From an uncultured beta proteobacterium (GTDB lineage: Bacteria; Pseudomonadota; Gammaproteobacteria; Burkholderiales; Gallionellaceae), in assembly GCA_963695355.1 (NCBI GenBank), contig OY968775.1, positions 71,983 to 135,982 on the forward strand: a DNA stretch of 64,000 bases, in the 5' to 3' direction. A program made the translations under genes and the position numbers. Positions 45,141-61,007 of the stretch are shown one piece after another (positions within the stretch are counted from its first letter, which is position 1; each line of letters begins with the position of its first letter). The notes below the pieces were generated by a model, which saw only the letters and a list, made by a program, of their open reading frames with translations, was not told where the DNA came from and did not search any database.

Positions 45141-45644
45141 TTGAGCATGGAAAGTGTTTTATCAATAATTGGTTCAATTGCTTCTATTGGTGGAGCAATT
45201 TGGGCATTTATTGAAGCTAAAAAATCTACGAATGCAGCAACTAAATCAGAACGACTTCGTGATGAACTTATCCATCGAAGAAAAATGGTAGAGGTATCAC
45301 AAGTGCATTCAGAGACAACTAGAGTTTTATCTGTTGTATCCAAAGTTGGGCCTTCTTGTAATGCAAAGCTTCTCAAAGGTGTTAACTGTGCTGATATCGC
45401 AAAAGAGGTAGAGGTATATGCAAGGTTTATCTTAGAACAAAGCGGGCATTTCACTGATTTTTTCGAAAATAAAGCCAAAGAACTTTGTGCTGATTTAAAA
45501 AACGATATTGAAGCTTTGTCCGAAGCTATCAGTTTTGAAGACAAAAAAAATTACGGCAAAAGCATCTACTATAAAATTCAGAATTTTGTGCCCGCAGTTA
45601 AACAGCTCTCAGATGAAAAGAAAGAGCGAGCATTAGAGCTATAA
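45141..45644 (+). CDS. Hypothetical protein with N-terminal TM helix (cassette-borne)
   Basis: 167-aa ORF starting 28 bp after a GTTAGGC core site (45106-45112). Confidence 0.8.
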   Translation: MSMESVLSIIGSIASIGGAIWAFIEAKKSTNAATKSERLRDELIHRRKMVEVSQVHSETTRVLSVVSKVGPSCNAKLLKGVNCADIAKEVEVYARFILEQSGHFTDFFENKAKELCADLKNDIEALSEAISFEDKKNYGKSIYYKIQNFVPAVKQLSDEKKERALEL

Positions 45645-45658
45645 ATTAAGGAGTTATC

Positions 45659-46216: not shown

Positions 46217-46250
46217 CAAAGCGTTCGTTCGGATGCTAACTACGCTGCGG
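46211..46250 (+). other. Truncated integron attC site (5' half)
   Basis: gcctaacaaagcgttcgttcggatgctaactacgctgcg: R'' box overlapping the ORF stop and exactly complementary to GTTAGGC at 45106; the 3' half is missing. Confidence 0.7.
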
Positions 46251-46259
46251 TCTGCACTT

Positions 46260-46560
46260 TGGAAACGCTACTGACCGCAATGTGCTGCCATATTTTATCA
46301 ACGTCGCAGGAAAACTGAATGTTTCAGGCTGGGATGCGAAAGAGCGACAATTGAGTTTTTCCAAGAAGTGCCAGGCCATCTGTATGGAACTAAAGTTGGA
46401 CTTCAATCCTTCGGTTGAGCCAAACGCTACCGCCATTCGGCTATTCGATTTGCGCAATGAGCTTGCCCATCCAAAGATGGTCACCGAGTCACTGAACGAA
46501 TTAATATCCCAGCAAGAATATGAGCGCCGACAAACTGAATTGGGGGGGGATAAGCCATCC
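46260..46560 (+). pseudogene. HEPN-like protein fragment
   Basis: YFINVAGK...W...ER.LS...K followed by LRNELAHPK (Rx4H); no intact N-terminus. Confidence 0.5.
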
Positions 46561-46929
46561 ATTGAGGGAACAGCTCACTCCTCTTGCAGTAGATCAGCTT
46601 ATTCAGTCCACCGAGGCTTACCGCTTGATGAAACAGTCGCGATGCTTAACACACACAAACCCAACGAAGAACAATTAAAGATGTTGACGTTAGGAATGGA
46701 AATGTTTGTGGGTGTGCTGGGTAATGTTGTTTCAGGCGTTGGCGAAAATAGGCATTGATACCACCATTATTAAAGGTATTCGATCCAAGTTTTATTAAGT
46801 TTTCAGCAGATTCCGTTTTGCTAATTAATAGCCCAACGTTGTCAAAATTGTCAGCTACAATGCAAAAAATATTGTTCTCAGTAAACTTTTTTTGTATTTC
46901 TTAAGACCTAATACGGCGCAGTTTTAATT

Positions 46930-48756
46930 ATGATCCTTGCCAAAATCCCACCTGTGAAGAGTCCGAGCCTGCCTGGATTCTCTATTGATGCGAACGTCTG
47001 TCTAAACCCTGCCTGCGAAAATTTCGGTGTCTCAGGAGAAGACATCCATCTGCCGGAAATCGGTTATGAATATAAGGACAACGATGAGGTCTTAAGATAC
47101 AAATGTAAGCGCTGCGGCCAATCCCACTCAGCCTTTAGCAATACCAGCGTGTTAGAAACTTTTCATCGCTGTCTTCAGAACTCGATACCCTACGCAAGCT
47201 GCCCAAATCCAGAGTGTAAAAATCATTTTGTAAACCTGTTTGAGCACTACCATGACGACCCGAGAGATAAGCGCGAAAAGCTTTATCGCATAAATGTCTC
47301 TGATGATGCCAAGGAGTATTATCAGGCTCGATGTCGTAGTTGCAATAAAACCTTCACCTTGTCAAAACCACTCCGTCTGCATATCAGTGAACGCAGATTC
47401 TGGCAGAAGGACATGGGTTTCTTCATTAAAGCTATCGTTAACAGCTCCGGGCCATCCATTGTCATGAACCTGGCAGAGGTTCATGGCGATCTCTACTATT
47501 CCCAGCTAACGGCTGCTTCGAATGCGTTACTCAATTACAACAACTTTCATCTCATCAATCTCTTGAAGCCCTCCGTTGCTCCTAAACTAATGCGGATTTA
47601 CACAGACTGTATCGTTTGCAGCATCAAGATGCACCGCAATGACCAAAGAGTTCAACTGATGAAAATCATTGTGTCAACTACTGAACTAGATGGCCGCTCA
47701 CTGATCCTCGCGTTCCACCCTTTGTTCGATCAGCAAGACATTGACGACAACATTATTGCGAACGATCACAAACAGCCATTGGAGCTACGGCGATATGAAT
47801 ATCTGAAACATCCATTCAATACTAAAAGGGATGAGAAGAATCCATTGCCTCCAATCGGGGTCGGTGGATCCTTCATGGAGGATTCATATGCCTACATGGG
47901 ACATTTTTTGGTATTAAGGAAACTTCTTGCCAAGGTAGAGTCATTACAGTTCTATATGGACGGTGAAGCTTCCCTATACAATGCTGCATTGACGGCCTTT
48001 TCCGATCGCATCAAACCCAATCACAACAAATCCAAAAGAAGTAGCTGTGATATCGTCGTGAAGGTATTGGAGAAAGATAAAAAAGCAACCCAAAATTACT
48101 CTCAGGTGAGGGACCAGGCTAGAAAATCCTTTCGAAAAGTCCATGCCGATTCGAAGCCGCCCGATGCCTCTCAATTACGCCGATTTTTATTGAGCGAAGA
48201 GATGCAACGGGTGAATGAGTCCATCAAAAATAGCAACACCAATAAGAGCAGAAAATTATTTACAGAACCACTCTCCAGAATTTACACAGTAGCAACCAGC
48301 AGGGCCAACACGACCGGTAAAGATTTTTGGGTAACCGACCTACTTAATGGTAAATCAAACCCGCCAGCCAGAATTTTGTGGTTAACCCGAACGACCGAAC
48401 ATGCAAATACAGACCATGAGCTCGACTTGTATCACAACTGTTCGCTCTTTTACATTGATAGTATATTTGGAGCCTTCCGACAGCGCTCCTCGTTGGTAGC
48501 TCGGCCTCAATTAACGGCATCAGGCCAAAGGAGCTATAACAGCAATCCCGAGTTACCTATCAATCTGATCCAGGATTTCACCATCAACGTAGCGTACTGG
48601 AATTTCTTCCTGAAATATCGAAGTGTGCCGAAAGAAACCATTGCCTATGTGCATGGCCTAGTCAAAAAGAAAGAATCTCCGGAGTTCAAAGTGGCTTTCC
48701 AGACCAGATATACCTTTGATAATGCGAAAAGGATAACCAAATGGCTTGGTATTTGA
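46930..48756 (+). CDS. Large multi-Zn-ribbon RNase-H-fold transposase-like protein, paralogue A
   Basis: CLNPAC/CKRC and CPNPEC/CRSC Zn ribbons, helical HTH-like segment, acidic motifs IYTD, FYMDGE, YIDSIF, and C-terminal VAYWNF...TIAYVHGL, all collinear with paralogue B. Confidence 0.7.
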   Translation: MILAKIPPVKSPSLPGFSIDANVCLNPACENFGVSGEDIHLPEIGYEYKDNDEVLRYKCKRCGQSHSAFSNTSVLETFHRCLQNSIPYASCPNPECKNHFVNLFEHYHDDPRDKREKLYRINVSDDAKEYYQARCRSCNKTFTLSKPLRLHISERRFWQKDMGFFIKAIVNSSGPSIVMNLAEVHGDLYYSQLTAASNALLNYNNFHLINLLKPSVAPKLMRIYTDCIVCSIKMHRNDQRVQLMKIIVSTTELDGRSLILAFHPLFDQQDIDDNIIANDHKQPLELRRYEYLKHPFNTKRDEKNPLPPIGVGGSFMEDSYAYMGHFLVLRKLLAKVESLQFYMDGEASLYNAALTAFSDRIKPNHNKSKRSSCDIVVKVLEKDKKATQNYSQVRDQARKSFRKVHADSKPPDASQLRRFLLSEEMQRVNESIKNSNTNKSRKLFTEPLSRIYTVATSRANTTGKDFWVTDLLNGKSNPPARILWLTRTTEHANTDHELDLYHNCSLFYIDSIFGAFRQRSSLVARPQLTASGQRSYNSNPELPINLIQDFTINVAYWNFFLKYRSVPKETIAYVHGLVKKKESPEFKVAFQTRYTFDNAKRITKWLGI

Positions 48757-49526
48757 GCGAGGTCGTCACCGATCTCTCCCCTGTCGTGGAGATCCTCAAG
48801 CTATACGATCAGACCACCGGATCATTCCCCGATGAAGAAAATAACGATGATTACAAAAAACGCCTAGTCCCGTTATTACGCCAGGCCACGTTTAATACCG
48901 ACCACATTGAAGCCGATAGCATCCCGGCAGCCTATGAGAATGATGAGTACAAATGGCTGGCATCCGGCTACCACGACCTTATCCGCAAACTGGGGCTTGT
49001 TAAGCTTAGCGTCGATAAGCTTGAGCGTGAGCATGGGTACTCTTTAGAACTGACAGAAGCAGGAAGACAGGTTCTCAACCAGCAGCTCACCTTATCCGAA
49101 CTCATGAAGGCCGGGTTGCCTGAATGGAGAAACGATGCCGGAATCCACCCCTATCCGATCATCCTAAAGCTCTTGTCGAATTTAAAACAGAGCAATCTTT
49201 ACCCTTGTGGTGGCCTGTTGCTGCTGGAGGTAATGATCGTTTTATTGAAGCTCAACCAACCGCATGGACACATTATCAATCTCTATGACCATATCCAGGA
49301 ATATAGAAAAGGGTTTTATCCTTACATGACTGGTGAGGTTCAAGTCGATCTGATCAACTATTCAGGTTTACTCTGGGAGAAGCTGAGCCAGGACTTATCC
49401 AACTACCATGCTGCCAATTACCCGGCTCGGGCAACATTGCAACTGATGATGTACGCGGGCGATTTAGCCTATGGCCCGGTACCCGATGAGATCTTTGGTC
49501 AGGTTCAGTACGTCACCATCGCCTAA
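48741..49526 (+). CDS. Putative AlwI-family restriction-endonuclease-like DNA-recognition (winged-helix) subunit
   Basis: LIRKLGLV...LELTEAGRQVL and IHPY.IILKLL.NL...LLLLEV resemble the AlwI-family N-terminal domain; overlaps paralogue A by 16 bp. Confidence 0.5.
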   Translation: MAWYLSEVVTDLSPVVEILKLYDQTTGSFPDEENNDDYKKRLVPLLRQATFNTDHIEADSIPAAYENDEYKWLASGYHDLIRKLGLVKLSVDKLEREHGYSLELTEAGRQVLNQQLTLSELMKAGLPEWRNDAGIHPYPIILKLLSNLKQSNLYPCGGLLLLEVMIVLLKLNQPHGHIINLYDHIQEYRKGFYPYMTGEVQVDLINYSGLLWEKLSQDLSNYHAANYPARATLQLMMYAGDLAYGPVPDEIFGQVQYVTIA

Positions 49527-49541
49527 TACGAGTCATTCATC

Positions 49542-50390
49542 ATGGTTGAAAACAACAAAACCATCGCCATCGGTACAGATAAAGATCCCTATAAGGTACC
49601 GCTGAACCTAAAACAGTTGTCGATATATATGCAATACATTATTCCGAATTCAAAGCGTGAAATGAAAGATATATTCGGTAAATTTGATCTCGATTCAGCT
49701 TCACGCAGAAAACAGCTGAACACCATCGACTTTAAAACCGATGCGGGTGAACGCATGACATTGCAGAAAATCAACAAAGGGCTCACGATGGAATTGTTCG
49801 CTAGCGGAATGTTCAGCTACTTCGATCATCCCTCAGAAGTGCATTCAAACTGTGTCGCAAATCGATATCACCCTCAAGGTGCAGTTGATAAGAACCAATA
49901 CCAAGTAGTGCCAAAAAATTATGCACCAGGGGGTATGCCGGATGTGCAGATTGACTATACGAATTTCATGGTGATGTTAGAGGTCAGTGCCAAGGAGAAG
50001 CCAACCTTAGGAGATTTGAGTAAACAATTTAACGGTGCATTAAAGCACGCACGCACAATCCGCGAAGATGGATATGATAAGCCTATCTATTGCCTAGTGA
50101 TCCACGAGCGCTCTTTGATGGAAACGAAAAATAAAACCGCGCTGAAAGAAGTCCTGGAAGTGATCAATCCATCAGAGCAGATCTATATCACCGCGATATC
50201 GATATTGGAATTTGCGGGTTTGGGGCAAGTGATGGCAGATACATACGAGAATGCCATTTCCATAATACAGAACGACAATTTACTTAGTGTCCTCAAGGCA
50301 ACCGTTGAAAAGGGTGTTGAGGGTAAGTTTCATGACGAATTCGTTAAATGCCTGAAAGACCTTAAACCCAAAGCTGCTCATGAATGGTGA
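49542..50390 (+). CDS. PD-(D/E)XK nuclease, AlwI/FokI-like catalytic subunit
   Basis: PKNYAPGGMPDVQI..Y...MLEVS...KH...YCLVI matches the AlwI-family pattern APGG.PD...EV; no methyltransferase nearby. Confidence 0.6.
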   Translation: MVENNKTIAIGTDKDPYKVPLNLKQLSIYMQYIIPNSKREMKDIFGKFDLDSASRRKQLNTIDFKTDAGERMTLQKINKGLTMELFASGMFSYFDHPSEVHSNCVANRYHPQGAVDKNQYQVVPKNYAPGGMPDVQIDYTNFMVMLEVSAKEKPTLGDLSKQFNGALKHARTIREDGYDKPIYCLVIHERSLMETKNKTALKEVLEVINPSEQIYITAISILEFAGLGQVMADTYENAISIIQNDNLLSVLKATVEKGVEGKFHDEFVKCLKDLKPKAAHEW

Positions 50391-50419
50391 CTTTGGAAGT
50401 TTGTGTGTGGATGTGACTG

Positions 50420-50748
50420 GAAGCATATTCCACTCGTTTTGAGATTTTCGACAGATTTTCGGCCTTAGCTGACGTGACTGGCTGGCTCATGTAGGTGTAA
50501 AGACAGCCTACATCACACCTGGCAGTCCATGGGAGAACGGTGACTGTGAAAGCTTCAACGGCACATTGCGTAATGAGTTGCTTGATGGAGATATCTTCTA
50601 TGGTGTCAAAGAAGCGCAGGTGTTGGTTGATCAGTGGGTCAGGCATTACAACACCACCAGGCCGCACAGTTCGTTGGGTTACAAGCCTCCTGCGCCAGAG
50701 GCTATCATCAACATGAACATACAAAATTTACACTCGGTGATGCACTGA
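50420..50748 (+). pseudogene. IS3-family transposase 3' remnant
   Basis: GVKTAYITPGSPWENGDCESFNGTLRNELLD...W..HYNT.RPHSSLGY.PP. Confidence 0.9.
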
Positions 50749-50905
50749 AGTATGATACAAATACTCTCACTTCAAGTGGTACTAAATTTGACGCAGTTCA
50801 TGACTTCAGCAACGAGCACCACCATGTCCGCAAAGCATAACGTAACTCTGTCAGGGGTTGGCAACCGTACCTTCGGGCGAAAGGTGTGAATGCAGGACTT
50901 AACGC

Positions 50906-53083
50906 CTACGTCGATAAATACAATCGCCACTGTTGAATTACTGATGCGGTCACTGCATCGCTCAACCATACTGCTTGTTGAAGAATTTTAGTATTCTCAT
51001 CATTGGGTAACTTTGGATTACATAATTGCTTGCACATATCCAGCAAGTTTTTATAGGGTATCGGACTTTTGCTGAATAGCGTGTTATGTCGATACAACCC
51101 TAACTCTTTTAACTGAGTGTTGAGAAGGGCTGCATAGATGTATTTTGAATAGCTTAAATTCAGCTCCATATTGACGTATTCACGAAACACGTCTGCCTCA
51201 ACGATGACATTTTCTACATTTAAAATCTCACGAATAACCTGCATGACGGCATCTGTGTCGATATTGCTAAAGGCTTTTTCAGTTGTGGTGTAAACCATTT
51301 TATCAACGCGAACCACTTTGCCTTCTTGCATCAAATTGCTGATATAAAATCCGGCATGACCTAAACTTTTGCTTTTCAATCGCTCAGCTATTTCCTGCTT
51401 AGTCATGGCTACTGTGGATTCATTAAGCACTTTTATGATGACATCGGCTTGGGTGATACGTTTTGAATCTGGATCAAGGCTTATGCTATCCGAACCTGAT
51501 TTGCCATCAAAGTAAAGTCCGTAATCTTCGCCATACTCTCTGACAAGATGGCGCAAAGTGAAGTACTCTATTTCGCTGCGTTGCCCTTTGGTTTGATAGT
51601 AATAGTCGTGCAAATGCGAAGCTGTTATTTGTTTTCGCTTAAAGTAATCAATCAGATGTTGCATGATTTCAGGGATGTCAAACTGCTCAAGGTCAAGAAA
51701 TATCAGATTTCGATAAGTTCCTTTGCCGCATAAATAAATATATTCGGAATCATTGAACCCATGAGTTGATCTAGTCTCATCTATTTGTGTTGATGCGCAC
51801 CCTTTTACATTTACTATTTTGGCAATATCTTTCCATGGCAATCCTTCGGGATGAGAAGTTAAGATATGAGCCACGGCCTTGCCTCTAGCAAGTTTCATTG
51901 GATAAATGCCTTGTTCAGTTACTTTAATGTTATGGGATTTCTCTAATTGGTTTATGCCGTGTATTGCTGATGCCTTGTCGTACCCATAATTCGACATCAA
52001 TTCATTGATGATAATTTCTTCGGCGACAGGGGAAGGCATAGAGCAGAACAGCGAGTCTATAATTTCAGTATGAATCTTGGTGAAAATTATCTTGCTAATG
52101 CTGCCTGTTTCAACTTGGCAACATAATTCAATAAGAGCGTAGAACAGCTTCTCTGTGGCAAAACATTTGGCTAATTTAGGCAATAACACCGTTAAATCTT
52201 CAATCATTCTTGCACGGATATTTGCCCATAATATTTTGGGTGGTATCGTCAAACGAAAAGGAAGATTGGCATTGATAGGCTGCTCAATTTGGCGTATCCG
52301 CTCTCTGGTTAGTGGCTTACCCTCGGTATTTTTATATCGACCTGCAACTTCCTCAAGCGTTTCATGTTGGTGATTGAATCCCCAGCGCGAAAGCGCAATA
52401 TCCGTTTTCATTTCATCCAATGTCCATAAATAGCTTTCAATGTCTTCAATGAGTACGTTATCTATCTCTTTAAATTCAATTAAGTTTAATGAGGTAAATT
52501 TTTCCGACTGCTCAAATAAAAGGTTGGGCAATTGTTTTTGCAATTTAATTAAACTTAAAGCATACAACTTGCCCACAGAAGGTAATTCAGCAAAGTGAGA
52601 CGAATCGAGATTAATGAGGTCTTGAACCGTGACTAAGTCGCCCACTGAAGCAGAAATTTTTCTTATGAGTTCTTGATATTGTGTTGGGAATACCACTTGC
52701 GCCAGATGAGTTTCTAGTTGTGCTAGTGAAAGTGTAATTTGAGGGGGTAATTCAAACGCGGCAGGCATCGTGCTTAAAGCATTTTCCTTGATATCAGAAC
52801 CTGGTTTGACTGTTGAGGCATTCATGTCAAGTGACAAGCCAATCTTGCCAAGACAGAGCTCGATTTCCCGCAGCGACTTAAGGCCTAAATTCTGGGCTTG
52901 CAGCAAACTATTTCTAGTGCATTGAACCAGATCTCGGATGTAATGAATATTTTGTTTCTTGAGGCAATTGTATGGGCGCGGTGGGAGATTCAGATTCTCA
53001 ATGGGGCGCTGAAAAATTGCGTCATTCTTACTAGATAAAAGCACTTGTCCATATTCCGAAGTATCCATTTCATTCATTTTCAT
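50906..53083 (-). CDS. RNAP alpha-CTD / sigma70 region-4 / multi-wHTH protein
   Basis: IENLNLPPRPYNCLKKQNIHYIRDLV...NLGLKSLREI (alpha-CTD), a second degenerate copy, and TLEEVAG...TRERIRQIE (sigma70 r4 HTH). Confidence 0.8.
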   Translation of the reverse strand: MKMNEMDTSEYGQVLLSSKNDAIFQRPIENLNLPPRPYNCLKKQNIHYIRDLVQCTRNSLLQAQNLGLKSLREIELCLGKIGLSLDMNASTVKPGSDIKENALSTMPAAFELPPQITLSLAQLETHLAQVVFPTQYQELIRKISASVGDLVTVQDLINLDSSHFAELPSVGKLYALSLIKLQKQLPNLLFEQSEKFTSLNLIEFKEIDNVLIEDIESYLWTLDEMKTDIALSRWGFNHQHETLEEVAGRYKNTEGKPLTRERIRQIEQPINANLPFRLTIPPKILWANIRARMIEDLTVLLPKLAKCFATEKLFYALIELCCQVETGSISKIIFTKIHTEIIDSLFCSMPSPVAEEIIINELMSNYGYDKASAIHGINQLEKSHNIKVTEQGIYPMKLARGKAVAHILTSHPEGLPWKDIAKIVNVKGCASTQIDETRSTHGFNDSEYIYLCGKGTYRNLIFLDLEQFDIPEIMQHLIDYFKRKQITASHLHDYYYQTKGQRSEIEYFTLRHLVREYGEDYGLYFDGKSGSDSISLDPDSKRITQADVIIKVLNESTVAMTKQEIAERLKSKSLGHAGFYISNLMQEGKVVRVDKMVYTTTEKAFSNIDTDAVMQVIREILNVENVIVEADVFREYVNMELNLSYSKYIYAALLNTQLKELGLYRHNTLFSKSPIPYKNLLDMCKQLCNPKLPNDENTKILQQAVWLSDAVTASVIQQWRLYLST

Positions 53084-55395
53084 TGTCCTGAATTATTTCT
53101 GTTCTTTTGCAGACAACTGAGAAAACGAAATTCTGAACTAAATACACGTTTAATTTCTGCTCTACCTTCGGCGGGTAGTTTTAATAAATCCTGCCTCGTC
53201 TTAATAATATTCAGATACTTTTCAATGAGCAAGGACTCTTCATTAATTTCGGCAATTTTTGAGATATTTGTCGGCGATACCTCAAGGGGTGCTGTGATGG
53301 CTTGTTGATTTAATTGAACGGAATTTATGGATAAAAAATTTCCTAATTCACTTTCATTACCCAACAAAAACTCGACCTCGGCTTCCGAGCAAGCAAGCAA
53401 ACCGTTATGTTGCTTAGCAAGGCTAATCGCTCTAAAACTTGGGCAGATGCGATTTTTTTGATAAAAGTTCTGCGCGTAATCCAAGCATATTTTACGAAAC
53501 ATACCTTGATCGTATTGCCCAATTAATGCGGCTTCCAGATAGCCAAAATACGAGTCAAAATGCGTAGCGATTTGGTCGGCAGTAACATCAGTCGAAATAC
53601 TTTCGATTTCATTCAGTTTGGGGATATGGTTGTTGTCCTCATAGTATCTTCGCAGCACCTCAATCACCTGCATTCGTGACTTCAAGCGATATTGCAGCTC
53701 TTCAATAAGTTGCAAAACTTGCGCGGCAGATTGGCTATAGCTCACTTCCAACGAAGAGTTATGCACGGTTTCCTTTTTATCGCGTGGCTCCCAATTTTCT
53801 TTTTCAATGGGTACGCGATTTACTCTTTTGCTGAGTTGGTGTACTTCGTTTAGCCGTTCCAATGAACCCACAAAATCTAATACATGAACGTAATCTTTGT
53901 TGGGTGTTTTGCGCAGTCCTCTGCCTAGTTGTTGCAGCCAGATCGTATGCGACCCCGTGTAACGCATAAAAACTAGCAGATTAGTTTCTGGAATATCAAT
54001 GCCTTCGTTGAATAAATCTCGTACCAAAATGTAACGATAATTCCCCTCACGGAAATCACGGATATTTTGCCAGCGTTGTGAATCACTCATTTGAGAATGT
54101 ACAAAGGTCGCGCTGCCTGGCGGGAAAAACTGAATCAGGTAAGTAATGTGTTGAATATTGCGGCAAAAGACAATCCCCTTGAGATTGCAGATTTGTTTTT
54201 CTTGTACGGTTTTTTCTATGATGCGGACAACTTCTTCGTCCTTTTTATGCAAGAACAGACGTTGGTCTAAATCGCTAATCGACATGCCATGATTCAGTTG
54301 GTCTATACGCGATTGATCCAAGTCATCAAGCAAAACCAAATACTTTGGAAATGCCAGTTTGTTATGACGCAATGCCCAAGCTAAATCATACTTGCCCACA
54401 TGACCTGCCGCACCACCAAAAAATGCTAGTACGTCTTTGTTATCCTCACGAAACGGTGTTGCGGTCAGGCCTATCAATAATTTTGGATGAAAATGCTCGA
54501 CGACTGTGGCATAAGTTCTGGCTGGGGTGTGATGAGCTTCATCAACCACTATCACGTCAAAAGTTTCCTTTTCCAGCGTGGCGATTTTGCTAAATAGCGT
54601 ATCGAAACTGCCAAACACAAAATCAGTTTGCTCTGGGTTTGCACCATCAAAACAGGCCGAAAATGAGTAAGTGCCAATACCCAAAACGTTTTTGAAGGCA
54701 GTAACCGATTGCAACAGTATTTCGACCTGATGCGCCAAGAACAGCACACGCTTAACTTTGCCCTGTTGCAATATCTGTTTTAGCAAATGGGCAACGGTAT
54801 AGGTTTTACCTAACCCTGTTGCCATTTCTATTAACAAACGATTATGCCCTGCATTAAAGCGCGTCAAGCTGTCCTGAATAACGGTTTCTTGGTATGTTCT
54901 GGGCTTGATATCCCGTCCGATTTCTGATTGCTTCTCAATCCACAAATTCTGCAAACTGTCACGATCAAGTAGCTCAACTCCAAGTCTTAACGCTCTTACT
55001 TTCACCTCGGAAGTAAAATAAGAATTTGTCACTAAAATCATGTTGACGACATTAGCGAGCTTTGCGCCCGTGACCAATTGATTTAATGCGCTTACGTCAA
55101 CTGTATCTCCGGCTTGCCTTTGCTTGACTTCAATCGCAAATTTTCGTTTGCTTTTATAGGCGAAAATATCAACACCACCATCACCATGCTTAAACTCCTT
55201 CCCTACTTTGGTAATAATTGCATCGCTCCAGCCAGCAGCCACAAAAACATCCCGGACGTAAATTTCAAAATCGGATGGAGATAGTTTATCTATCAGTTTG
55301 AATTCTGATAAAGCGGCTTTGTTCAGTGGCGGGCAAACACGATTTGTGTTGACATGATGTTTTCCACCGCCGACTTGTTTTTTGCCTGTTTTCAT
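53080..55395 (-). CDS. Mrr-family endonuclease fused to SF2 (ResIII/DEAH) helicase
   Basis: DFE.YV..VF...GDGGVD...IEVKQ...VTNS.FT (Mrr_cat); MATGLGKT, VDEAHH, GLTATP, FNEGIDIP, QQLGRGLR. Confidence 0.88.
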   Translation of the reverse strand: MKTGKKQVGGGKHHVNTNRVCPPLNKAALSEFKLIDKLSPSDFEIYVRDVFVAAGWSDAIITKVGKEFKHGDGGVDIFAYKSKRKFAIEVKQRQAGDTVDVSALNQLVTGAKLANVVNMILVTNSYFTSEVKVRALRLGVELLDRDSLQNLWIEKQSEIGRDIKPRTYQETVIQDSLTRFNAGHNRLLIEMATGLGKTYTVAHLLKQILQQGKVKRVLFLAHQVEILLQSVTAFKNVLGIGTYSFSACFDGANPEQTDFVFGSFDTLFSKIATLEKETFDVIVVDEAHHTPARTYATVVEHFHPKLLIGLTATPFREDNKDVLAFFGGAAGHVGKYDLAWALRHNKLAFPKYLVLLDDLDQSRIDQLNHGMSISDLDQRLFLHKKDEEVVRIIEKTVQEKQICNLKGIVFCRNIQHITYLIQFFPPGSATFVHSQMSDSQRWQNIRDFREGNYRYILVRDLFNEGIDIPETNLLVFMRYTGSHTIWLQQLGRGLRKTPNKDYVHVLDFVGSLERLNEVHQLSKRVNRVPIEKENWEPRDKKETVHNSSLEVSYSQSAAQVLQLIEELQYRLKSRMQVIEVLRRYYEDNNHIPKLNEIESISTDVTADQIATHFDSYFGYLEAALIGQYDQGMFRKICLDYAQNFYQKNRICPSFRAISLAKQHNGLLACSEAEVEFLLGNESELGNFLSINSVQLNQQAITAPLEVSPTNISKIAEINEESLLIEKYLNIIKTRQDLLKLPAEGRAEIKRVFSSEFRFLSCLQKNRNNSGQ

Positions 55396-55955
55396 TATTT
55401 CAGTGAAGAAGATGAAGTTGTAAAATTGAAAGCAAGTCTATAGCACTAGTGATATAGGTGTCGATAATTAGTGGCTTCACATATTGCAATCGATTCCTTC
55501 CATCTGCACAGGTTGCGGAGCGTTTAGTTGTTCGACATCGCAGCTAACACGTGAAAGTCATCCCACTCTCCTATCGAATGCATCTTATTCGCACTAATGG
55601 CATCTTTCAGGATGACTTGCTACAAGGGTCGACAATCCGCCAGTAGGTCGGGTGGCGAGCCTCTCCATTATCAGTTATTCCTCAAGCTGATTAAACTGCT
55701 TCAAAAATAATTCAATGACTACTTTGTAGAAGGGAGTATGAGCAAGCCTACAGCACTACAGCAATATATAAATGTCATTTACGGAACTTCAACTTGTTAT
55801 TTCATTTATTTTACGGCACGATTCTGTGATGAGAACGATTTTTCTATATTGTCATCAGTGAAAGAAATACGTAATGGTAAATTTCACCCCACCTACGGAA
55901 ATTGACGCTTCACAGCATAACTGCCTGCGCCCCTCACTTCAAAGTTAAATCCCAG

Positions 55956-56780
55956 ATGGCGATCCACCAACTCGATCTATTAGAGAATGCACTCGACAGC
56001 CTAGCTGAAGCACTGGCGAAGTTCGAAGAGGGCGATGCGGGAGAATCAAAGGCATACAAGTTCGCCATTTTACATATGGCGCACTTTATTGAACTTATTT
56101 TCAAACATCACATAGCACAAAAGCATCCGCTATTGATTTACAAGGATCCATTCGCGCAAAAGGTCGATAAGAACAAAACCATTACCCTTTGGGATGCGGT
56201 GAATTTTATCAACAACGAGGCGACAGACACAGTTTCTGCTGAGTTTCGTACCAACTTGGAATGGCTGAAGCGACTAAGAAACGAAATCGAACACCACAAA
56301 TTCACAATGGATGTGCCACAGGTGCGCATCACGTTGGGAAGACTGTTCCGATCAGTGCTTGAATTTCTTGAAAACTATAGCGGTGTTGAGATCGAATCTC
56401 ATATTCCCGACAACACAATGGATTCTTTCAAGGTGCTTTCTGACGAGTATGAGTTCCGACGACGCGATGCCATCCGTAAAGCAGAAGAAGTCGAAAAAGC
56501 AAACACATCAGACCACACTTCGGGCGAAGACGAGTCACCTGTGAGGCTTGATTGTCCCAATTGTGAGAACCCAACTCTGGTTATCAATGATGACTCTGAT
56601 ACGGGCTATCGTTGCACATTCTGCGAGAACGAAGATAGTGACGAGTTGCCCGCATGGTGCGACATTTGTAGCGTCCAAACCATCCATGGTGAACTCGTAT
56701 TTTGGGAAAGCGAGGCTGGTCAAACTGAAGGCCGCTGCTATTACTGCTCAGGTAGATACCGTGCTGAAAAAGATGACTAA
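55956..56780 (+). CDS. HEPN-like protein with C-terminal Zn ribbons
   Basis: AILHMAHFIELIFKH, LRNEIEHH (Rx4H), CPNC/CTFC/CDIC/CYYC; likely ATG at 55956. Confidence 0.65.
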   Translation: MAIHQLDLLENALDSLAEALAKFEEGDAGESKAYKFAILHMAHFIELIFKHHIAQKHPLLIYKDPFAQKVDKNKTITLWDAVNFINNEATDTVSAEFRTNLEWLKRLRNEIEHHKFTMDVPQVRITLGRLFRSVLEFLENYSGVEIESHIPDNTMDSFKVLSDEYEFRRRDAIRKAEEVEKANTSDHTSGEDESPVRLDCPNCENPTLVINDDSDTGYRCTFCENEDSDELPAWCDICSVQTIHGELVFWESEAGQTEGRCYYCSGRYRAEKDD

Positions 56781-56863
56781 ACTTTGGTCTAGCATGGTAT
56801 GTGCGAAAAGTCGCGCAGGCATGGTTGATTCTAAAGCCAGATTTCATAACATGAGCTGAGCTA

Positions 56864-57769
56864 ATGATTACAGAAAAATTGTATATTATTGGAAACGGTT
56901 TCGACATTTATCACGGGATACCATCGCGGTATACGGACTTTCGAACATATCTTGAACAGAGCGACCGGTCACTTTGTCAGAAGCTTGAGAACTACTTCAG
57001 TTACGAAGGATTATGGGCGGACTTTGAACAATCGCTGGCTGATTTCGATGCTGACAGATTGATTGAGGATGCGTCAAATTTTCTTGTTTCCTATGGGTCA
57101 GACGATTGGAGCGATTCATATCACCATGATTTTCAGTATGAGATTAATGAAGTGGTTGTCGCTTTATCACAGACATTGAAATTAAAGTTTGCGGAGTGGA
57201 TTGCACAACTACCAATCCCATCCGAGTTGGATATTAAAAATAAAAAGCTCGGTTGCATTGACAAAAATTCGACATTTTTGTCGTTCAACTATACAAACAC
57301 CCTTCAGGCAGCCTACTTAGTTTCAGACAGCCATGTGCTTCATATTCACATGAAATATCTAGTAAATGGCCCAGATTTAGTGCTGGGGCACGCTTGGAAG
57401 CCGGTCAAAAGAAATGCGTTAATGCATCAAGATGATCTTGAGCGGCAAGATGTCCGCATTGCCGAAGGCGACAAGATAATTGATAGATACTTCAAGACAA
57501 CCTACAAGCCAACGGAAGAAATTATAAAATTAAATGGCGAATACTTTGCGAGCTTGCGCCGAACAAAAGAAATTTATGTACTTGGGCACTCGATGTCGTG
57601 CGTTGACATTCCATACTTTCAAGAGATTGTGAGATCAATTGATGCGCGAAACACGAAGTGGTACATAAGCTACTTTGATGAGAAAGAGTTAGCAAGTCAT
57701 CAAGGAGCAATGAATGCCCTTGGCATTAGAGCAGAGTTGATAAATTTTTCTGACTTAAAGAGTATTTGA
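56864..57769 (+). CDS. abiH: AbiH-family (SIR2-like) abortive infection protein
   Basis: LYIIGNGFDIYHG..SRY.DF, FLSFNYT.TL, HIH...LGH, YVLGHSM..VD..YF. Confidence 0.85.
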   Translation: MITEKLYIIGNGFDIYHGIPSRYTDFRTYLEQSDRSLCQKLENYFSYEGLWADFEQSLADFDADRLIEDASNFLVSYGSDDWSDSYHHDFQYEINEVVVALSQTLKLKFAEWIAQLPIPSELDIKNKKLGCIDKNSTFLSFNYTNTLQAAYLVSDSHVLHIHMKYLVNGPDLVLGHAWKPVKRNALMHQDDLERQDVRIAEGDKIIDRYFKTTYKPTEEIIKLNGEYFASLRRTKEIYVLGHSMSCVDIPYFQEIVRSIDARNTKWYISYFDEKELASHQGAMNALGIRAELINFSDLKSI

Positions 57770-58040
57770 GTGAGTGTCTAAAGCGGGGAAAAGGTGTGTG
57801 ATTGGTTTTTATAAAGAAAATAGCCAGCCCGCAATTATACTGCCAGCTTTCCAGCTAAATAATTTTAGAGCAGTGAAGTGGGCAACTGCACTAATGAAGG
57901 CGATTGAGGACGCAAACGCAAAATGATAGATAGCGACTTCTGGGTTGCGCACATTGTCCAGCATTGAACAAAGAGGCCTTTGATAAAAACTCTGAATATA
58001 GGAGAATGAGGAATTGGCGAATAGCAACAAACATTAATTA

Positions 58041-58577
58041 ATGATAGCTTGGGAAGCATTTAAATATCGGGGAGTCGAGTACGATTTAACTCATCTTCAC
58101 CCATGCCGTCTCCAGTATATTCAATCGGAAAAATCTGGTCAGCCAGAAAGAAGATATATCGTTGAAGTCTGCTACAGCTTGCACTGCTTTACAAAAACAT
58201 TTTCAACCGCAGCAGACCCACATCTTAACTATAGTGATGCAAGAGAGACTCGAACTTTTGATCTTGAAAGATACGAATTATCTAAACAACTACCGCAAAT
58301 CATCCAAGACCTGAGTTCTAAAAGATGTATGCATACGGGAAAGGGAAATTTCTTTGTGGTTGAAGTTGTTACTTCAAGCGGTGCTAAAGAAGATTACGAG
58401 GTGTATTTTGATGTCCAGAATTCAAGTGCCAAGGGAATGATTGCACGCCTCTTTGTACAAAGTGCTTATGTCAGAGATGAAAAGCATATCAACAGATTAG
58501 CCGCCACCAAAAAAATATCGCTGTTTGTGATTCTGAATAATAAGCAAACAGGAAAGCCGATTAAAATGCCGCAGTAG
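58041..58577 (+). CDS. Hypothetical protein, putative RNase toxin (BECR-like, tentative)
   Basis: 178-aa ORF with YDLTHLHP, HCFT, R.FD.ERYELSKQLP and RLFVQSAY; faces a convergent structured RNA. Confidence 0.6.
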   Translation: MIAWEAFKYRGVEYDLTHLHPCRLQYIQSEKSGQPERRYIVEVCYSLHCFTKTFSTAADPHLNYSDARETRTFDLERYELSKQLPQIIQDLSSKRCMHTGKGNFFVVEVVTSSGAKEDYEVYFDVQNSSAKGMIARLFVQSAYVRDEKHINRLAATKKISLFVILNNKQTGKPIKMPQ

Positions 58578-58579
58578 AA

Positions 58580-58710
58580 ACGGTTAAGGCTCCTTACGGA
58601 GCCTTAACTTTGATACTAACCGAACCTCTTAGAATATCTGCACTTGGGCGGAAACCATTTCTGGCGGGATCACTGCACGGCTTTCACCGCATTCGGTTTA
58701 TACAATGACA
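58580..58710 (-). ncRNA. Putative ~130-nt structured RNA (candidate RNA antitoxin)
   Basis: Enclosing stem AACCGAA/UUCGGUU, hairpins GCGGU-GAAA-GCCGU and CCA-GAAA-UGG, upstream sigma70 promoter, downstream terminator. Confidence 0.6.
58583..58608. terminator. Hairpin terminator shared by the convergent ORF and RNA
   Basis: Perfect 11-bp stem gttaaggctcc-ttac-ggagccttaac with short T/A tracts on both sides. Confidence 0.8.
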
Positions 58711-58715
58711 TGGGC

Positions 58716-58744
58716 AATATATTCCTAAATGACGAACCCGTCAA
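58716..58744 (-). promoter_or_regulatory. Sigma70 promoter driving the putative RNA
   Basis: Minus strand TTGACG (58744-58739), 17-bp spacer, TATATT (58721-58716); no ORF follows before the terminator. Confidence 0.7.
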
Positions 58745-58856
58745 TATCTATTCCGCCATCACAATCTGACCGTACCGTCGTGTGAATTGACTGTTGTTGG
58801 CGACGATTGGAGGGTAATCTCAAGCGTGTTGGCACCCTTAGTACGCTTGACCGCAG

Positions 58857-60737
58857 TTATAAGCGCATTCCTTTCCTACGTTTTCTGGGTGCTCTCGGTA
58901 TCTTCTGTCCGGGCCACAACACATCATCGTAATGCAAAGGTTTATTAGTTAGCCCAAGCCGCATAGCTGGCGTCATTTTGTCATCATCACTGATCTTGAT
59001 GAAATTATGATAAACCCGAAGCAGACTCAGATATTGCTCCACCATCTTTGGATTGTAGGGTGCGTAACCGTGCCAGACCGTGTTGTAGCCGCTTGAAGTG
59101 CCAATCGGGCGCTCAAATGCATTTATCAATCGCCTCGAAATTTGAAAAATATTATCCACGGCATTGATGCCTGCATCGAGGTACATCTGTGCCCTGGTCA
59201 AATCGTCATAGTCATTGTCGCTTCGCTCAGTTAACCAGCATATAGCTTTATCCGGTTCGTTCATTGACGGAAGAGGATGGGTCACCCATTTATCCTTCCA
59301 TTTACCAATGTTCGCTGCCCCTACTATGTTGTCGTGCATCAACCATAATTTAGCCTGATCCCGTTTGTTTGCGGGTAAATTGGACGAGTAGTCTGACAGG
59401 ATCTGTTGTGCCTTTTCACACCGACCCTCTTTATCTGGAGTGGTCAGGAATTTCGAATAGCGAACATAGAAACCGTGGGCTTGACCAGATTTGATTTCTT
59501 TTTCAAATGCCGAGATAAATCCGGCCCTGAGCATGGAATCGCAATCCATGTAATAGAATAATTTCTCTACCCCTGCCCCCTTGACCAGCATATGCATCAT
59601 TTGAAAATGGGCATAGCTGGTATACGGCACATGAACTTGCATGCCTTTGGTCAAGATGGGATTGCAGTAATCCAAATCCATATTTTGTTGCTCACGATTC
59701 TCAACATCCTTGCGAGATTGTGCTGCAACATAAACATCATTGATCTGTTGCAAGATATCCTGAGCCTTTGTTAAACCGAGTCGCTGACCAAGCTTGCGGC
59801 CAGCCAGAAACTCATCACAAGTCATCCAATATTGTGCGTGCTGTCTAAATGCTTCCGGTCTCAACGCGTCACCGTTCATCGAGGCTTCTTTGTTGATCGT
59901 GTAGGAATCGGCATCCTTATCGTAGTTTGCACACATGCCAAGGATAAAGCGGCTATCCTGATCAACCGTACACACAGTTGAAAATTCAGCGTTACGCCGA
60001 TCATGCTTATTAGTCCAGTTGAGTTGATACTCCTGGACATCGACTGATAGCCTGAGGGTTTTGGGAAGCAATATCTCACCATTGATCATACGTCGGTCAA
60101 ACAATCCTGATAATTGGTTGCAGCGACGATGGACAAAATCGAGTAAAGAGTAATAGTTTTCATTGCTTTGGATAGACATCCCCCTGATAGCGCATCGAAC
60201 TGGGGATTTGTTGGCGACACGGCTGAATAAATCCGATGCCATATGCCTGTTCTTTGGATGAATACGAACTGGTTGTGAAGCCAACATCCGTTTCTTGCAA
60301 GCCTTGCATACATATAGCTGCTCTCCGGTGACCGAGTGAACCCCTGCCCTACTGTAAAGCTCAGGATACTCACCAACAGTACATCCGCAATTCGGACATC
60401 CAACCGTCTTGCACGCGAGTAATTCGGTCGTCGTAAGCACTGAATGGGTGATGCGCTCAAATTCAGCGGATATACCGGTATTGGATTTGATTGGAATCTT
60501 CTCGTTGCATGACTTACACAGGATGGCCGGAATACGACCTTCTGATGTGTTTGTTACTTTGTAATGAGTATCGCGATCGGGGCTCGGGCCAGGTTTACCA
60601 GGCTGTTCTCTGGCAGGGATACCAAAGTTATCACATTGAGGGTTTTTGCAAAAATTGACCTGCAGTGGCATGGCCGGACTGGCCCCCAATTTCAGTTGGG
60701 AGGTCGGCGGAATACGAAAATTTGTTGGCTGAACCAT
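58857..60737 (-). CDS. Large multi-Zn-ribbon RNase-H-fold transposase-like protein, paralogue B
   Basis: NFCKNPQC/CKSC and CKTVGC/CKAC Zn ribbons, HTH-like segment, LSVD, YYMDCD, NAVDNIF..SRR, VYHNF...MTPAMRLGL (IS1-like tail); starts 77 bp inside the right IR. Confidence 0.75.
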   Translation of the reverse strand: MVQPTNFRIPPTSQLKLGASPAMPLQVNFCKNPQCDNFGIPAREQPGKPGPSPDRDTHYKVTNTSEGRIPAILCKSCNEKIPIKSNTGISAEFERITHSVLTTTELLACKTVGCPNCGCTVGEYPELYSRAGVHSVTGEQLYVCKACKKRMLASQPVRIHPKNRHMASDLFSRVANKSPVRCAIRGMSIQSNENYYSLLDFVHRRCNQLSGLFDRRMINGEILLPKTLRLSVDVQEYQLNWTNKHDRRNAEFSTVCTVDQDSRFILGMCANYDKDADSYTINKEASMNGDALRPEAFRQHAQYWMTCDEFLAGRKLGQRLGLTKAQDILQQINDVYVAAQSRKDVENREQQNMDLDYCNPILTKGMQVHVPYTSYAHFQMMHMLVKGAGVEKLFYYMDCDSMLRAGFISAFEKEIKSGQAHGFYVRYSKFLTTPDKEGRCEKAQQILSDYSSNLPANKRDQAKLWLMHDNIVGAANIGKWKDKWVTHPLPSMNEPDKAICWLTERSDNDYDDLTRAQMYLDAGINAVDNIFQISRRLINAFERPIGTSSGYNTVWHGYAPYNPKMVEQYLSLLRVYHNFIKISDDDKMTPAMRLGLTNKPLHYDDVLWPGQKIPRAPRKRRKGMRL

Positions 60738-60814
60738 AATTATCTCGACTTTTCACATTTAAGTGGAAATATTAAAAGCATGTAACATACTGCTTGCTTT
60801 ACATATTTTAGTCA

Positions 60815-60836
60815 TTATATCACAAAATTCCGAACG
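60815..60836 (-). repeat. Right sub-terminal inverted repeat
   Basis: ttatatcacaaaattccgaacg, followed by ggtag and the ttctccgcca duplicate. Confidence 0.97.
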
Positions 60837-60851
60837 GGTAGTTCTCCGCCA

Positions 60852-60957
60852 AATCAATCACTTATGATTATTATAAGTAATCATAAGTAACTGCAAAACA
60901 CCAAAAATAACAGCTTTAGTCTGACCGTTTCCTGACCGTTTTACAAACTCGGTCAGG
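60852..60957. repeat. Putative left end (att region) of an older integrative element
   Basis: 11-7-11 dyad acttatgatta/taatcataagt (60860-60888); direct repeats ctgaccgttt at 60921 and 60932 with an inverted cggtcag at 60950. Confidence 0.5.
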
Positions 60958-61007
60958 AAAAATTTTTCTTTTCAGTCAATAGACAGGCTGCCAACGTTAA
61001 CCAAGAT

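What the first reader, a model, noticed from the sequence alone, without database searches (positions are those of the whole stretch)
58041..58744. Putative RNase facing a convergent, independently promoted structured RNA (type III TA-like, non-repetitive)
Downstream of the 178-aa ORF, the opposite strand has a near-consensus sigma70 promoter (TTGACG-17-TATATT). It would drive a ~130-nt non-coding transcript that folds into a closed multibranch structure (7-bp outer stem, two GAAA tetraloop hairpins, GUGCAG twice) and ends at the shared terminator. The RNA barely overlaps the ORF, so antisense control is unlikely, and a protein-binding RNA antitoxin fits better. Known ToxIN/CptIN/TenpIN antitoxins are upstream tandem repeats; this one is single and convergent, closer to the AbiF-type concept but with an unrelated-looking protein.
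Basis: partly seen in the sequence, partly recalled or inferred. Interest (0 to 1): 0.8.

Follow-up and report, generated by a model that had tools for sequence, protein, structure and literature searches.

The report
YjaZ protein with SroH-like partner RNA
The ORF is a YjaZ-family protein, and the opposite-strand transcript beside it is a real, pseudoknotted small RNA found next to almost every YjaZ gene across bacterial phyla; it is a distant relative of the uncharacterised E. coli yjaZ-sroH pair, so the two probably work as one mobile protein-RNA unit.

Summary
The 178-aa ORF (58041-58577, +) belongs to the YjaZ family (PF27200) and is 32% identical to E. coli YjaZ/HtrC. Downstream on the minus strand lie a sigma70 promoter (58744-58716), a ~95-nt structured core (58711-58616) and a shared terminator (58608-58583).

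A covariance model of the core finds it at the same place and strand beside 76 of 80 YjaZ genes. These come from Proteobacteria, Acidobacteriota, Binatia and a Deinococcus plasmid. Covariation is strong: 26 of 28 pairs show compensatory changes.

The fold is an H-type pseudoknot (P1/P0) carrying two mostly GNRA-capped hairpins and a hairpin with a near-invariant CCAAG loop.

E. coli K-12 has the same layout: yjaZ, then convergent sroH. On plasmids, Rfam's sroH model and my models hit the same sites, so SroH is probably a diverged member.

Conserved antisense pairing to the yjaZ mRNA was tested and not found. An RNase fold was tested and not found. Neighbours vary, and 673 plasmid records carry the gene.

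A direct protein-RNA partnership is the best reading, and a type III-like toxin-antitoxin is possible but unproven.

The parts
58041..58577 (+). YjaZ-family protein gene (178 aa, PF27200)
   Evidence: ORF. There are 217 homologues of ~175-181 aa, and all listed carry PF27200. NCBIfam NF007263 (YjaZ) matches at E 2.3e-15, below the equivalog cutoff. Identity to E. coli YjaZ is 32%. AF2 gives pLDDT 90.1.
58583..58608 (.). Shared bidirectional terminator hairpin (11 bp) ending both the yjaZ mRNA and the small RNA
   Evidence: The gap between the stop codon and the RNA core has a median of 32.5 nt and lies between 23 and 55 nt in 68 of 74 loci, just room for this hairpin.
58580..58709 (-). Predicted whole small RNA (~130 nt), from the inferred start ~7 nt after the -10 box to the terminator
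   Evidence: Inferred from the promoter and terminator positions and from the 5' end of the covariance-model match. The transcript itself was not observed.
58616..58711 (-). Conserved structured core of the RNA (SroH-like)
   Evidence: Model R1 scores 94.9 bits, E 1.1e-18, and this is the only hit in the 64-kb window. No Rfam match.
58702..58709 (-). P1, 5' strand (GUCAUUGU); pairs with 58669-58676
   Evidence: Predicted de novo by RNAalifold on a MAFFT alignment. 6 of 8 pairs have compensatory changes and 89.6% of cells are paired.
58669..58676 (-). P1, 3' strand (GCAGUGAU)
58692..58698 (-). P0 (pseudoknot), 5' strand AACCGAA; pairs with 58618-58624.
   Evidence: This helix was not part of the covariance model. 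Even so, 83.8% of cells are paired and 6 of 6 pairs show compensatory changes. It crosses P1.
58618..58624 (-). P0, 3' strand UUCGGUU
58677..58690 (-). P2 hairpin with GAAA loop
   Evidence: 95% of cells paired and 5 of 5 pairs compensatory. The loop is GNRA in 40 of 78 sequences.
58654..58665 (-). P3 hairpin with GAAA loop
   Evidence: 96.3% of cells paired and 4 of 4 pairs compensatory. The loop is GNRA in 31 of 78 sequences.
58637..58652 (-). P4 hairpin with near-invariant loop CCAAGU
   Evidence: 5 of 5 pairs are compensatory. The loop is CCAAG[U/A/C] in 66 of 78 sequences. The window has a C.A mismatch at one pair.
58716..58744 (-). Sigma70-type promoter of the RNA (-35 TTGACG 58744-58739; -10 TATATT 58721-58716)
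   Evidence: TTGAC/TTGC and TAnnnT occur at the same distance from the RNA 5' end in most of 76 loci.

Best explanation
This is a distant member of the YjaZ-SroH cassette, a self-contained and horizontally mobile two-gene unit. One gene encodes a ~178-aa YjaZ-family protein. The other, placed tail-to-tail, encodes a ~130-nt small RNA with its own sigma70 promoter, and both share a bidirectional terminator.

The RNA folds into a compact H-type pseudoknot (P1/P0) that carries two mostly GNRA-capped hairpins and a hairpin with a conserved CCAAG loop.

The RNA most likely acts by binding the YjaZ protein directly, not by base-pairing with its mRNA. The leading specific mechanism is toxin-antitoxin-like, resembling type III: the RNA holds a harmful protein in check, and the pair serves plasmid or island maintenance, or phage defence.

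Shown here: the conserved structure, strand, promoter and terminator, the obligate co-occurrence with YjaZ, the mobility, and the link to SroH.

Inferred: transcription in this organism, RNA-protein binding, any toxicity, and any RNase activity.
For: Co-occurrence and layout:
- The RNA was found at the same place and strand beside 76 of 80 genome loci, plus a contig-truncated hit (L082) and the window.
- Three of the four remaining loci give weak hits at the same place. The fourth ends at a contig edge.
- The distance from stop codon to RNA is fixed.

Structure, strand and signals:
- Covariation includes the pseudoknot helix that was not in the model.
- The strand is set by 252 G.U against 73 A.C pairs and by the GNRA loops.
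- Promoter elements are conserved.

Link to SroH:
- E. coli K-12 has yjaZ followed one base later by convergent sroH.
- Rfam's sroH model hits above its gathering score beside plasmid YjaZ genes in L087, L088, L089 and L094. The best hits of R1 (three loci) and R2 (all four) fall on the same sites.
- The YjaZ clade that carries SroH-type RNA differs from the rest at many family-invariant residues, so protein and RNA change together.

Autonomy and mobility:
- 69 upstream neighbours fall into 121 Pfam families, and none occurs more than 3 times.
- 673 plasmid records carry the gene, often next to ParA, Rep, resolvase or type II TA genes.
- In the window it sits in a low-GC island at tRNA-Ser, beside AbiH and a type IV restriction enzyme.

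Against antisense, and TA-like asymmetry:
- No conserved complementarity to the mRNA.
- Three loci with a disrupted YjaZ ORF keep a well-scoring RNA. No intact gene with readable flank clearly lacks an RNA.
Against:
- Nothing shows that YjaZ is toxic, binds RNA or is a nuclease. The confident AF2 model has no significant structural neighbour in the PDB.
- In E. coli K-12 a sroH deletion is viable and only envelope-stress sensitive (PMC5389530, PMC13572404). That argues against a potent toxin there, although the E. coli clade has lost many family-invariant residues.
- The strict tail-to-tail layout could also mean a cis mechanism.
- The homology to SroH rests on weak scores (7.8-16.9 bits) plus position and architecture. 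E. coli K-12 SroH itself was not hit by my models.
Confidence: 0.6

Rival explanations
1. Cis-acting 3'-overlap regulator. Convergent transcription and pairing of the two RNAs across the shared terminator would control yjaZ mRNA stability or termination. This resembles type I TA pairs whose antitoxin overlaps the toxin mRNA 3' end (bsrG/SR4 and txpA/RatA, from memory). The conserved fold would serve only RNA stability.
For: The arrangement is always tail-to-tail with a fixed gap of ~32 nt that holds one shared hairpin. The loops of a bidirectional terminator are complementary in the two RNAs by construction.
Against: The overlap is only the ~26-nt hairpin, which is self-paired in both RNAs. 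Terminator sequences vary freely, while the non-overlapping 95-nt core is the conserved, covarying part. A pseudoknot with GNRA loops and an invariant loop is more than stability needs. There is no conserved complementarity to the mRNA.
Confidence: 0.15
2. Trans-acting regulatory small RNA with YjaZ as its helper. The RNA would regulate other cellular mRNAs. YjaZ would be its dedicated chaperone, processing factor or stabiliser, and would not be a toxin.
For: E. coli SroH bound the kbl mRNA in gel shifts (PMC6172242). A sroH deletion has an envelope-stress phenotype (PMC5389530, PMC13572404).
Against: The cassette moves between phyla and plasmids, where host targets differ. The conserved single-stranded motifs are short (CCAAG, AAGAG). 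The RNA looks like a compact tertiary fold, not a seed-bearing sRNA.
Confidence: 0.15
3. Ligand-sensing or catalytic RNA, that is, a riboswitch-like or ribozyme-like element. Its fold would control read-through of the terminator into antisense yjaZ, or it would cleave itself.
For: A pseudoknotted aptamer-like core followed directly by an intrinsic terminator is the layout of transcriptional riboswitches.
Against: I saw no anti-terminator alternative. The terminator varies while the core is fixed. No Rfam ribozyme or riboswitch matches. E. coli SroH is detected as a full-length primary transcript, alongside processed forms (PMC5389530).
Confidence: 0.05

Closest known systems
E. coli K-12 yjaZ (b3989, formerly htrC) with the small RNA SroH (b4691, Rfam RF00372)
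   Same: A YjaZ-family gene is followed immediately by a convergent, independently transcribed small RNA that ends at the shared terminator. The order of elements matches: P1, a GNRA hairpin, a second hairpin, a hairpin with a CAAAGU loop (CCAAGU/C in plasmid copies), then a 3' strand that can pair back. Both partners are functionally uncharacterised (PMC11551758, PMC5389530).
   Different: The proteins are only 32% identical. The E. coli clade differs at many family-invariant residues. Rfam's sroH model does not detect the window RNA, and my models do not detect K-12 SroH. SroH is longer (161 nt), with a 5' extension and an extra hairpin. No paper in the searchable library mentions both genes.
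Type III toxin-antitoxin / abortive-infection systems (ToxIN, CptIN, TenpIN)
   Same: A protein gene is paired with a dedicated, structured, pseudoknot-forming non-coding RNA. Both are mobile, plasmid-borne and found in defence-island contexts. The proposed logic is an RNA that neutralises a protein directly.
   Different: In those systems the RNA is a tandem repeat array upstream on the same strand, processed by the toxin (from memory). Here it is single-copy, convergent and self-promoted. There is no sequence or fold similarity to ToxN-type RNases. Toxicity is untested.
Type I toxin-antitoxin pairs with 3'-overlapping antisense RNA (bsrG/SR4, txpA/RatA; from memory)
   Same: A convergent small RNA gene abuts the 3' end of the protein gene.
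   Different: Those toxins are small hydrophobic peptides, and the RNAs pair over ~100 nt or more. Here the protein is a 178-aa soluble protein, the overlap is only the terminator, and the conserved part of the RNA lies outside the overlap.

Membership tests
YjaZ protein family (Pfam PF27200; NCBIfam NF007263) | Significant match to the family model, or to family members, over the full length | tested here: met
   All listed homologues (down to 44% identity, full-length coverage in nearly all) carry precomputed PF27200, named YjaZ. NF007263 matches at E 2.3e-15 over residues 12-174. BLASTP against E. coli YjaZ gives E 7e-18. PF27200 is not in the local Pfam copy, so the window protein itself shows 0 families.
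YjaZ protein family (Pfam PF27200; NCBIfam NF007263) | Equivalog of E. coli YjaZ (NCBIfam cutoff 324 bits) | tested here: not met
   57.1 bits against a cutoff of 324. The E. coli clade differs at many conserved positions. The window protein is a family member, not an equivalog.
SroH RNA (Rfam RF00372) | Score at or above the Rfam gathering threshold (80 bits) | tested here: not met
   No sroH hit in window 57700-59000 even at E <= 10. The model does hit E. coli (201 bits) and plasmid copies (87-144 bits).
SroH RNA (Rfam RF00372) | Convergent small RNA gene directly after a yjaZ homologue, sharing its terminator | tested here: met
SroH RNA (Rfam RF00372) | Common descent or architecture with SroH | tested here: inconclusive
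   Neither R1 nor R2 was built with any SroH-type sequence. Their best hits lie on the Rfam sroH sites in L087, L088, L089 and L094 (R1 in three, R2 in all four), but at only 7.8-16.9 bits. The order of helices is the same. K-12 SroH itself was not hit.
Type III toxin-antitoxin (ToxIN/CptIN/TenpIN) | Toxin of the ToxN/AbiQ-type endoribonuclease families | tested here: not met
   No PADLOC or Pfam hit. Foldseek against the PDB gives a best E of 0.13 for the whole model and 0.12 for the C-terminal domain, with no RNase among the top 50 apart from one marginal hit to a CdiA toxin-immunity entry at E 0.78.
Type III toxin-antitoxin (ToxIN/CptIN/TenpIN) | Antitoxin is a tandem array of short repeats upstream of the toxin on the same strand | tested here: not met
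   No tandem repeat in 57500-59000. The RNA is single-copy, downstream and on the opposite strand.
Type III toxin-antitoxin (ToxIN/CptIN/TenpIN) | The RNA binds and neutralises the toxic protein | not testable with these tools
   Needs toxicity and rescue assays and binding assays.
Type I toxin-antitoxin | Antisense RNA pairs with the toxin mRNA to block translation or trigger decay | tested here: not met
   Loop-to-start-region complementarity is present in 6 of 78 loci. Cognate and non-cognate duplex energies are -39.9 and -39.6 kcal/mol. Complements of the conserved motifs occur in at most 14 of 77 mRNAs.

The most novel reading that the evidence does not exclude
YjaZ-SroH-type cassettes would be an unrecognised, phylum-spanning class of RNA-protein toxin-antitoxin or defence modules. 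A single-copy, convergently encoded, pseudoknotted RNA would directly gate an effector protein whose fold has no solved relative. This would give a function to the 20-year-old orphan sRNA SroH and to a protein family of more than 1,300 sequence clusters.
Probability: 0.35. Interest if true: 0.85.

Novelty: new variant of a known kind. Interest (0 to 1): 0.68.

Why it matters
SroH has been catalogued in E. coli since 2003 and yjaZ/htrC since 1990. Both are still listed as uncharacterised, and I found no paper that treats them together.

The comparative evidence makes them one unit. The unit has a defined RNA fold, with named helices and an invariant loop, which can be mutated and restored in ordinary E. 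coli K-12 experiments.

If the RNA gates the protein, this would be a new architecture for RNA-protein toxin-antitoxin or defence systems. It is common on Klebsiella, Enterobacter, Xanthomonas and Pseudomonas plasmids.

It also shows that Rfam's sroH model covers only a small corner of a much wider RNA family.

Tried and rejected
1. Known RNA family. Rfam scans of the window, 8 genome loci and 11 plasmid loci found nothing at these sites except sroH in E. coli-type copies.
2. Repeated element or MITE. The spacer is single-copy in the genome and there is only one model hit in the window.
3. P4 loop CCCAAG pairing with codons 3-5 of yjaZ (CUUGGG in the window). This is not conserved, present in 6 of 78 loci. 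Cognate and non-cognate duplex energies are equal.
4. RNase or RelE/BECR-like fold, also suggested in earlier AI notes. It was not reproduced. There are no Pfam weak hits in 63 members, no PDB sequence hit, and no significant Foldseek PDB hit for the whole protein or the C-terminal domain. Only weak BFVD hits appeared, to domains of phage polyvalent proteins (E 3e-3, TM 0.40); these are a lead, not a result.
5. A conserved operon partner. None was found.
6. Phage-borne copies. None in 50,697 phage records, though one phage-plasmid carries the cassette.
7. Plus-strand RNA (a yjaZ 3' UTR). Rejected on the G.U/A.C ratio, the GNRA loops, the conserved minus-strand promoter and the position beyond the terminator.
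8. Direct detection of K-12 SroH with my models failed.

Because of this there is no RNA-seq check and no whole-genome scan for orphan RNA copies.

Full report
OBSERVATION

The 178-aa ORF lies at 58041-58577 on the plus strand. On the minus strand, TTGACG-17-TATATT at 58744..58716 is the best sigma70-like site in 57700-59000, matching 10 of 12 positions. An 11-bp G+C-rich hairpin at 58583-58608 is terminator-like in both directions.

Folding energy alone does not decide anything. The minus strand gives -42.2 kcal/mol (z -4.7) and the plus strand -42.0 (z -4.8), and much of that comes from the terminator. Rfam has no match there, even at E <= 10. There are no tandem repeats. The spacer is single-copy in the 3.14-Mb genome.

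THE PROTEIN

The local Pfam copy, PADLOC and PHROGs give nothing. A homologue search returned 217 proteins, mostly 175-181 aa, and all listed carry precomputed PF27200, which names YjaZ. NCBIfam NF007263 ('stationary phase growth adaptation protein YjaZ') matches at E 2.3e-15, far below its equivalog cutoff. Identity to E. coli K-12 YjaZ is 32%, E 7e-18.

An exhaustive profile search found 1,346 50%-identity clusters at E <= 0.001. The best 150 are all short (90-242 aa) with a single matched stretch covering most of the protein, so no long multi-domain fusions appear among them.

AlphaFold2 gives a confident model: pLDDT 90.1 and pTM 0.84. Foldseek finds no significant neighbour in the PDB for the whole protein (best E 0.13, TM ~0.2). 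The same holds for residues 60-178 folded separately (pLDDT 86.3; best E 0.12). A PDB sequence-profile search found nothing. Weak BFVD matches to domains of phage 'polyvalent' proteins (E 3e-3, TM 0.40) are only a lead.

So 'putative RNase' has no support here. The 'RelE-like' idea in earlier AI notes was not reproduced.

THE RNA IS REAL AND TIED TO YjaZ

I fetched 80 genome loci that encode relatives. A blastn of the window's spacer against them showed that the ~130 nt after the stop codon are conserved, often more than the gene:

- L002: 96% over 163 nt, against 79% for gene plus spacer.
- L012: 81% over 129 nt, although the gene itself does not align at the DNA level.
- Acidobacteriota: 74-79%.

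RNAalifold on a plain MAFFT alignment of 27 elements predicted helices P1-P4 plus the terminator. 25 of 30 pairs had compensatory changes.

A covariance model of the 95-nt core (R1) gave 78 hits in 85 sources. Every hit lies directly downstream of the YjaZ gene on the opposite strand. They comprise 76 of the 80 genome loci, a contig-truncated copy (L082) and the window (94.9 bits), with no second hit in the window. Of the four missing loci, one ends at a contig edge. The other three (Pseudomonas, Xanthomonas; ~31-33% protein identity) give their best hits at the expected place and strand, at 8.8-16.2 bits.

The hosts span Alpha-, Beta- and Gammaproteobacteria, 'delta' MAGs, Acidobacteriota, Binatia, Entotheonella and a Deinococcus plasmid.

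STRUCTURE

Counts on 76 distinct sequences:

- 90.3% of cells are paired, against 73.9% in shuffles (0 of 500 shuffles reach it).
- 26 of 28 pairs show compensatory changes.
- Sliding the partner by 1-3 columns drops pairing to 29-41%.

The alignment was fitted to P1-P4, which favours them. However, those helices had already been found de novo. It still shows 83.8% pairing, with compensatory changes at all 6 pairs.

P0 (58698-58692 with 58624-58618) crosses P1 (58709-58702 with 58676-58669). The core is therefore an H-type pseudoknot that carries:

- P2 (58690-58677, GAAA loop).
- P3 (58665-58654, GAAA loop).
- P4 (58652-58637).

The P4 loop is CCAAG[U/A/C] in 66 of 78 sequences. The P2 and P3 loops are GNRA in 40 and 31 of 78 sequences.

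STRAND AND SIGNALS

G.U pairs outnumber A.C pairs 252 to 73 on the minus strand. Upstream of the model's first base, TTGAC/TTGC and TAnnnT hexamers recur at fixed spacing in most loci, although the surrounding sequence is not conserved. The gap between the stop codon and the RNA core has a median of 32.5 nt, and lies between 23 and 55 nt in 68 of 74 loci, just enough for the shared hairpin.

Together these indicate an independently transcribed ~130-nt RNA on the minus strand.

LINK TO SroH

In E. coli K-12, yjaZ (4189786-4190325, +) is followed one base later by sroH (4190327-4190487, -), which is the same layout. No paper in the searchable library holds both names.

Rfam's sroH model does not hit the window. 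It does hit, above its gathering score (87-144 bits), directly after plasmid-borne YjaZ genes of Enterobacter, E. fergusonii, Kosakonia and Thiothrix. At those same sites and on the same strand lie the best R1 hits in three of the four loci, and a hit 0.7 bits below the best in Kosakonia (7.8-16.9 bits; L087 E ~0.03-0.05). The best four hits of a second model, built only from distant non-SroH members, also lie there.

The alignments assign the same parts: P1 GGAUG/CAUCC, a GNRA hairpin, a second hairpin, a CCAAGU-loop hairpin, and a UCUG 3' strand that can pair back. RNAalifold on the five SroH-type sequences independently recovers hairpins in that order, plus one extra hairpin.

K-12 SroH itself was not hit by either model. 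I rate homology as probable, about 0.75, not proven.

The YjaZ proteins that accompany SroH-type RNAs differ from the rest at many positions conserved in at least 90% of the family. Examples are H18F, H20D, D66A/S, C96V/I, N103S, R145I/V/A and D146S/T/P. Protein subtype and RNA subtype therefore change together.

CONTEXT

The upstream neighbours of 69 loci fall into 121 Pfam families, and none occurs more than three times (ParA-type, Rep3 and TrbI are among them). The pair is therefore autonomous.

673 plasmid records carry a homologue: Klebsiella 371, Xanthomonas 82, Enterobacter 44, Pseudomonas 37. Of these, 355 are conjugative. No phage record does, but one E. fergusonii phage-plasmid carries it as an opposite-strand insert among tail genes. 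On plasmids it sits next to ParA, Rep, resolvase and type II TA genes, including on ~10-kb plasmids.

In the window it lies in a low-GC stretch (0.36-0.46, against 0.47-0.51 outside) that begins at tRNA-Ser 44453-44543. Its neighbours are AbiH, a PDC-S64/DUF3644-like protein and a Mrr-helicase type IV restriction enzyme.

MECHANISM

Antisense control of translation was tested and rejected. The window's CUUGGG, which is complementary to the P4 loop, is present in 6 of 78 loci. Cognate and non-cognate RNA-mRNA duplex energies are equal (-39.9 against -39.6 kcal/mol). Complements of the conserved motifs occur in at most 14 of 77 mRNAs.

A compact pseudoknot with GNRA loops and an invariant loop, found obligatorily next to one protein family in otherwise unrelated contexts, is best explained by direct RNA-protein partnership.

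A toxin-antitoxin-like role is favoured by the plasmid stability-region and island contexts. It is also favoured by an asymmetry. Three loci with a frameshifted or truncated YjaZ ORF (L073, L074, L080) keep a good RNA (49-82 bits). The one variant that lost the RNA has also lost the 3' third of the gene (L083/L084). No intact gene with readable flank clearly lacks an RNA. In L095 the models fail, but a promoter-like site, hairpins and a terminator are visible by eye.

Against this, toxicity and binding are untested, and no nuclease fold was found. In E. coli K-12 the sroH deletion is viable with only an envelope-stress phenotype (PMC5389530, PMC13572404). That is compatible with an attenuated chromosomal copy, but it is not evidence for one.

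The literature still calls SroH uncharacterised, although one study confirmed an in vitro mRNA target (kbl) (PMC6172242, PMC5389530). YjaZ's former htrC designation has been retracted (PMC11551758). sroH is patchily lost among E. coli lineages (PMC3318445).

NOVELTY AND LIMITS

The two genes are catalogued in E. coli. The window's pair is a distant variant that Rfam does not detect. I found neither the module concept nor the pseudoknot model in the literature I could search.

Many earlier AI notes in this scan reached the same reading. I arrived at it before reading them and do not count them as evidence.

Noticed in passing
L034:1820-1911 (-), Legionella waltersii: A RAGATH-13 ribozyme-class Rfam hit at 77.5 bits, just under the gathering score of 80, about 2 kb upstream of the YjaZ gene.
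   Followed up: no
L088 (E. fergusonii plasmid NZ_CP099330.1, 72326-73067 in the record): The yjaZ-sroH cassette sits as an opposite-strand insert between tail and baseplate genes of a phage-plasmid. A HigBA/RelE-type TA pair lies close by.
   Followed up: partly
L083/L084:4001-4642: A 213-aa variant, 94% identical to the window protein over residues 1-142. Its last third and the RNA have been replaced by unrelated sequence, and an EamA gene abuts it. This looks like a deletion that took the gene's 3' end and the RNA together.
   Followed up: partly
window 58857-60737 (-): A 626-aa ORF immediately upstream of the RNA promoter on the same strand. It has no hit in NCBIfam, PADLOC or PHROGs, and only sub-threshold Pfam matches (DUF6399, E 0.0045; DUF4428, E 0.036). 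Another first-reader note calls it transposase-like.
   Followed up: no
window 44453-61000: A low-GC island (0.36-0.46) starts at tRNA-Ser(GGA) 44453-44543. It carries a Mrr+helicase type IV restriction enzyme (53080-55395), a PDC-S64/DUF3644-like zinc-ribbon protein (55902-56780) and AbiH (56864-57769) next to the cassette.
   Followed up: partly
L095:1922-2213 (-), Shewanella xiamenensis 9.5-kb plasmid: Neither covariance model nor Rfam finds an RNA after this 33%-identical YjaZ gene. By eye, the spacer still has a TTGACG promoter-like site, a GGGUGG...CCACCC helix and a strong shared terminator, so it may hold a further diverged RNA type.
   Followed up: partly
window 58650/58639 (P4 pair; alignment A4 columns 149/166): 21 of 76 distinct sequences, the window included, lack a standard pair at this position, where most have C-G; those inspected, including the window, carry C.A. 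On the opposite strand this would read as G.U. It might be a protonated A+.C wobble or a recognition feature.
   Followed up: no
L015, L017, L018 (Acidovorax, Rubrivivax MAG, 'Synechococcus' MAG): Identical RNA cores, promoters and match statistics appear in contigs assigned to very different taxa. This suggests mis-binning of MAG contigs or very recent transfer.
   Followed up: no
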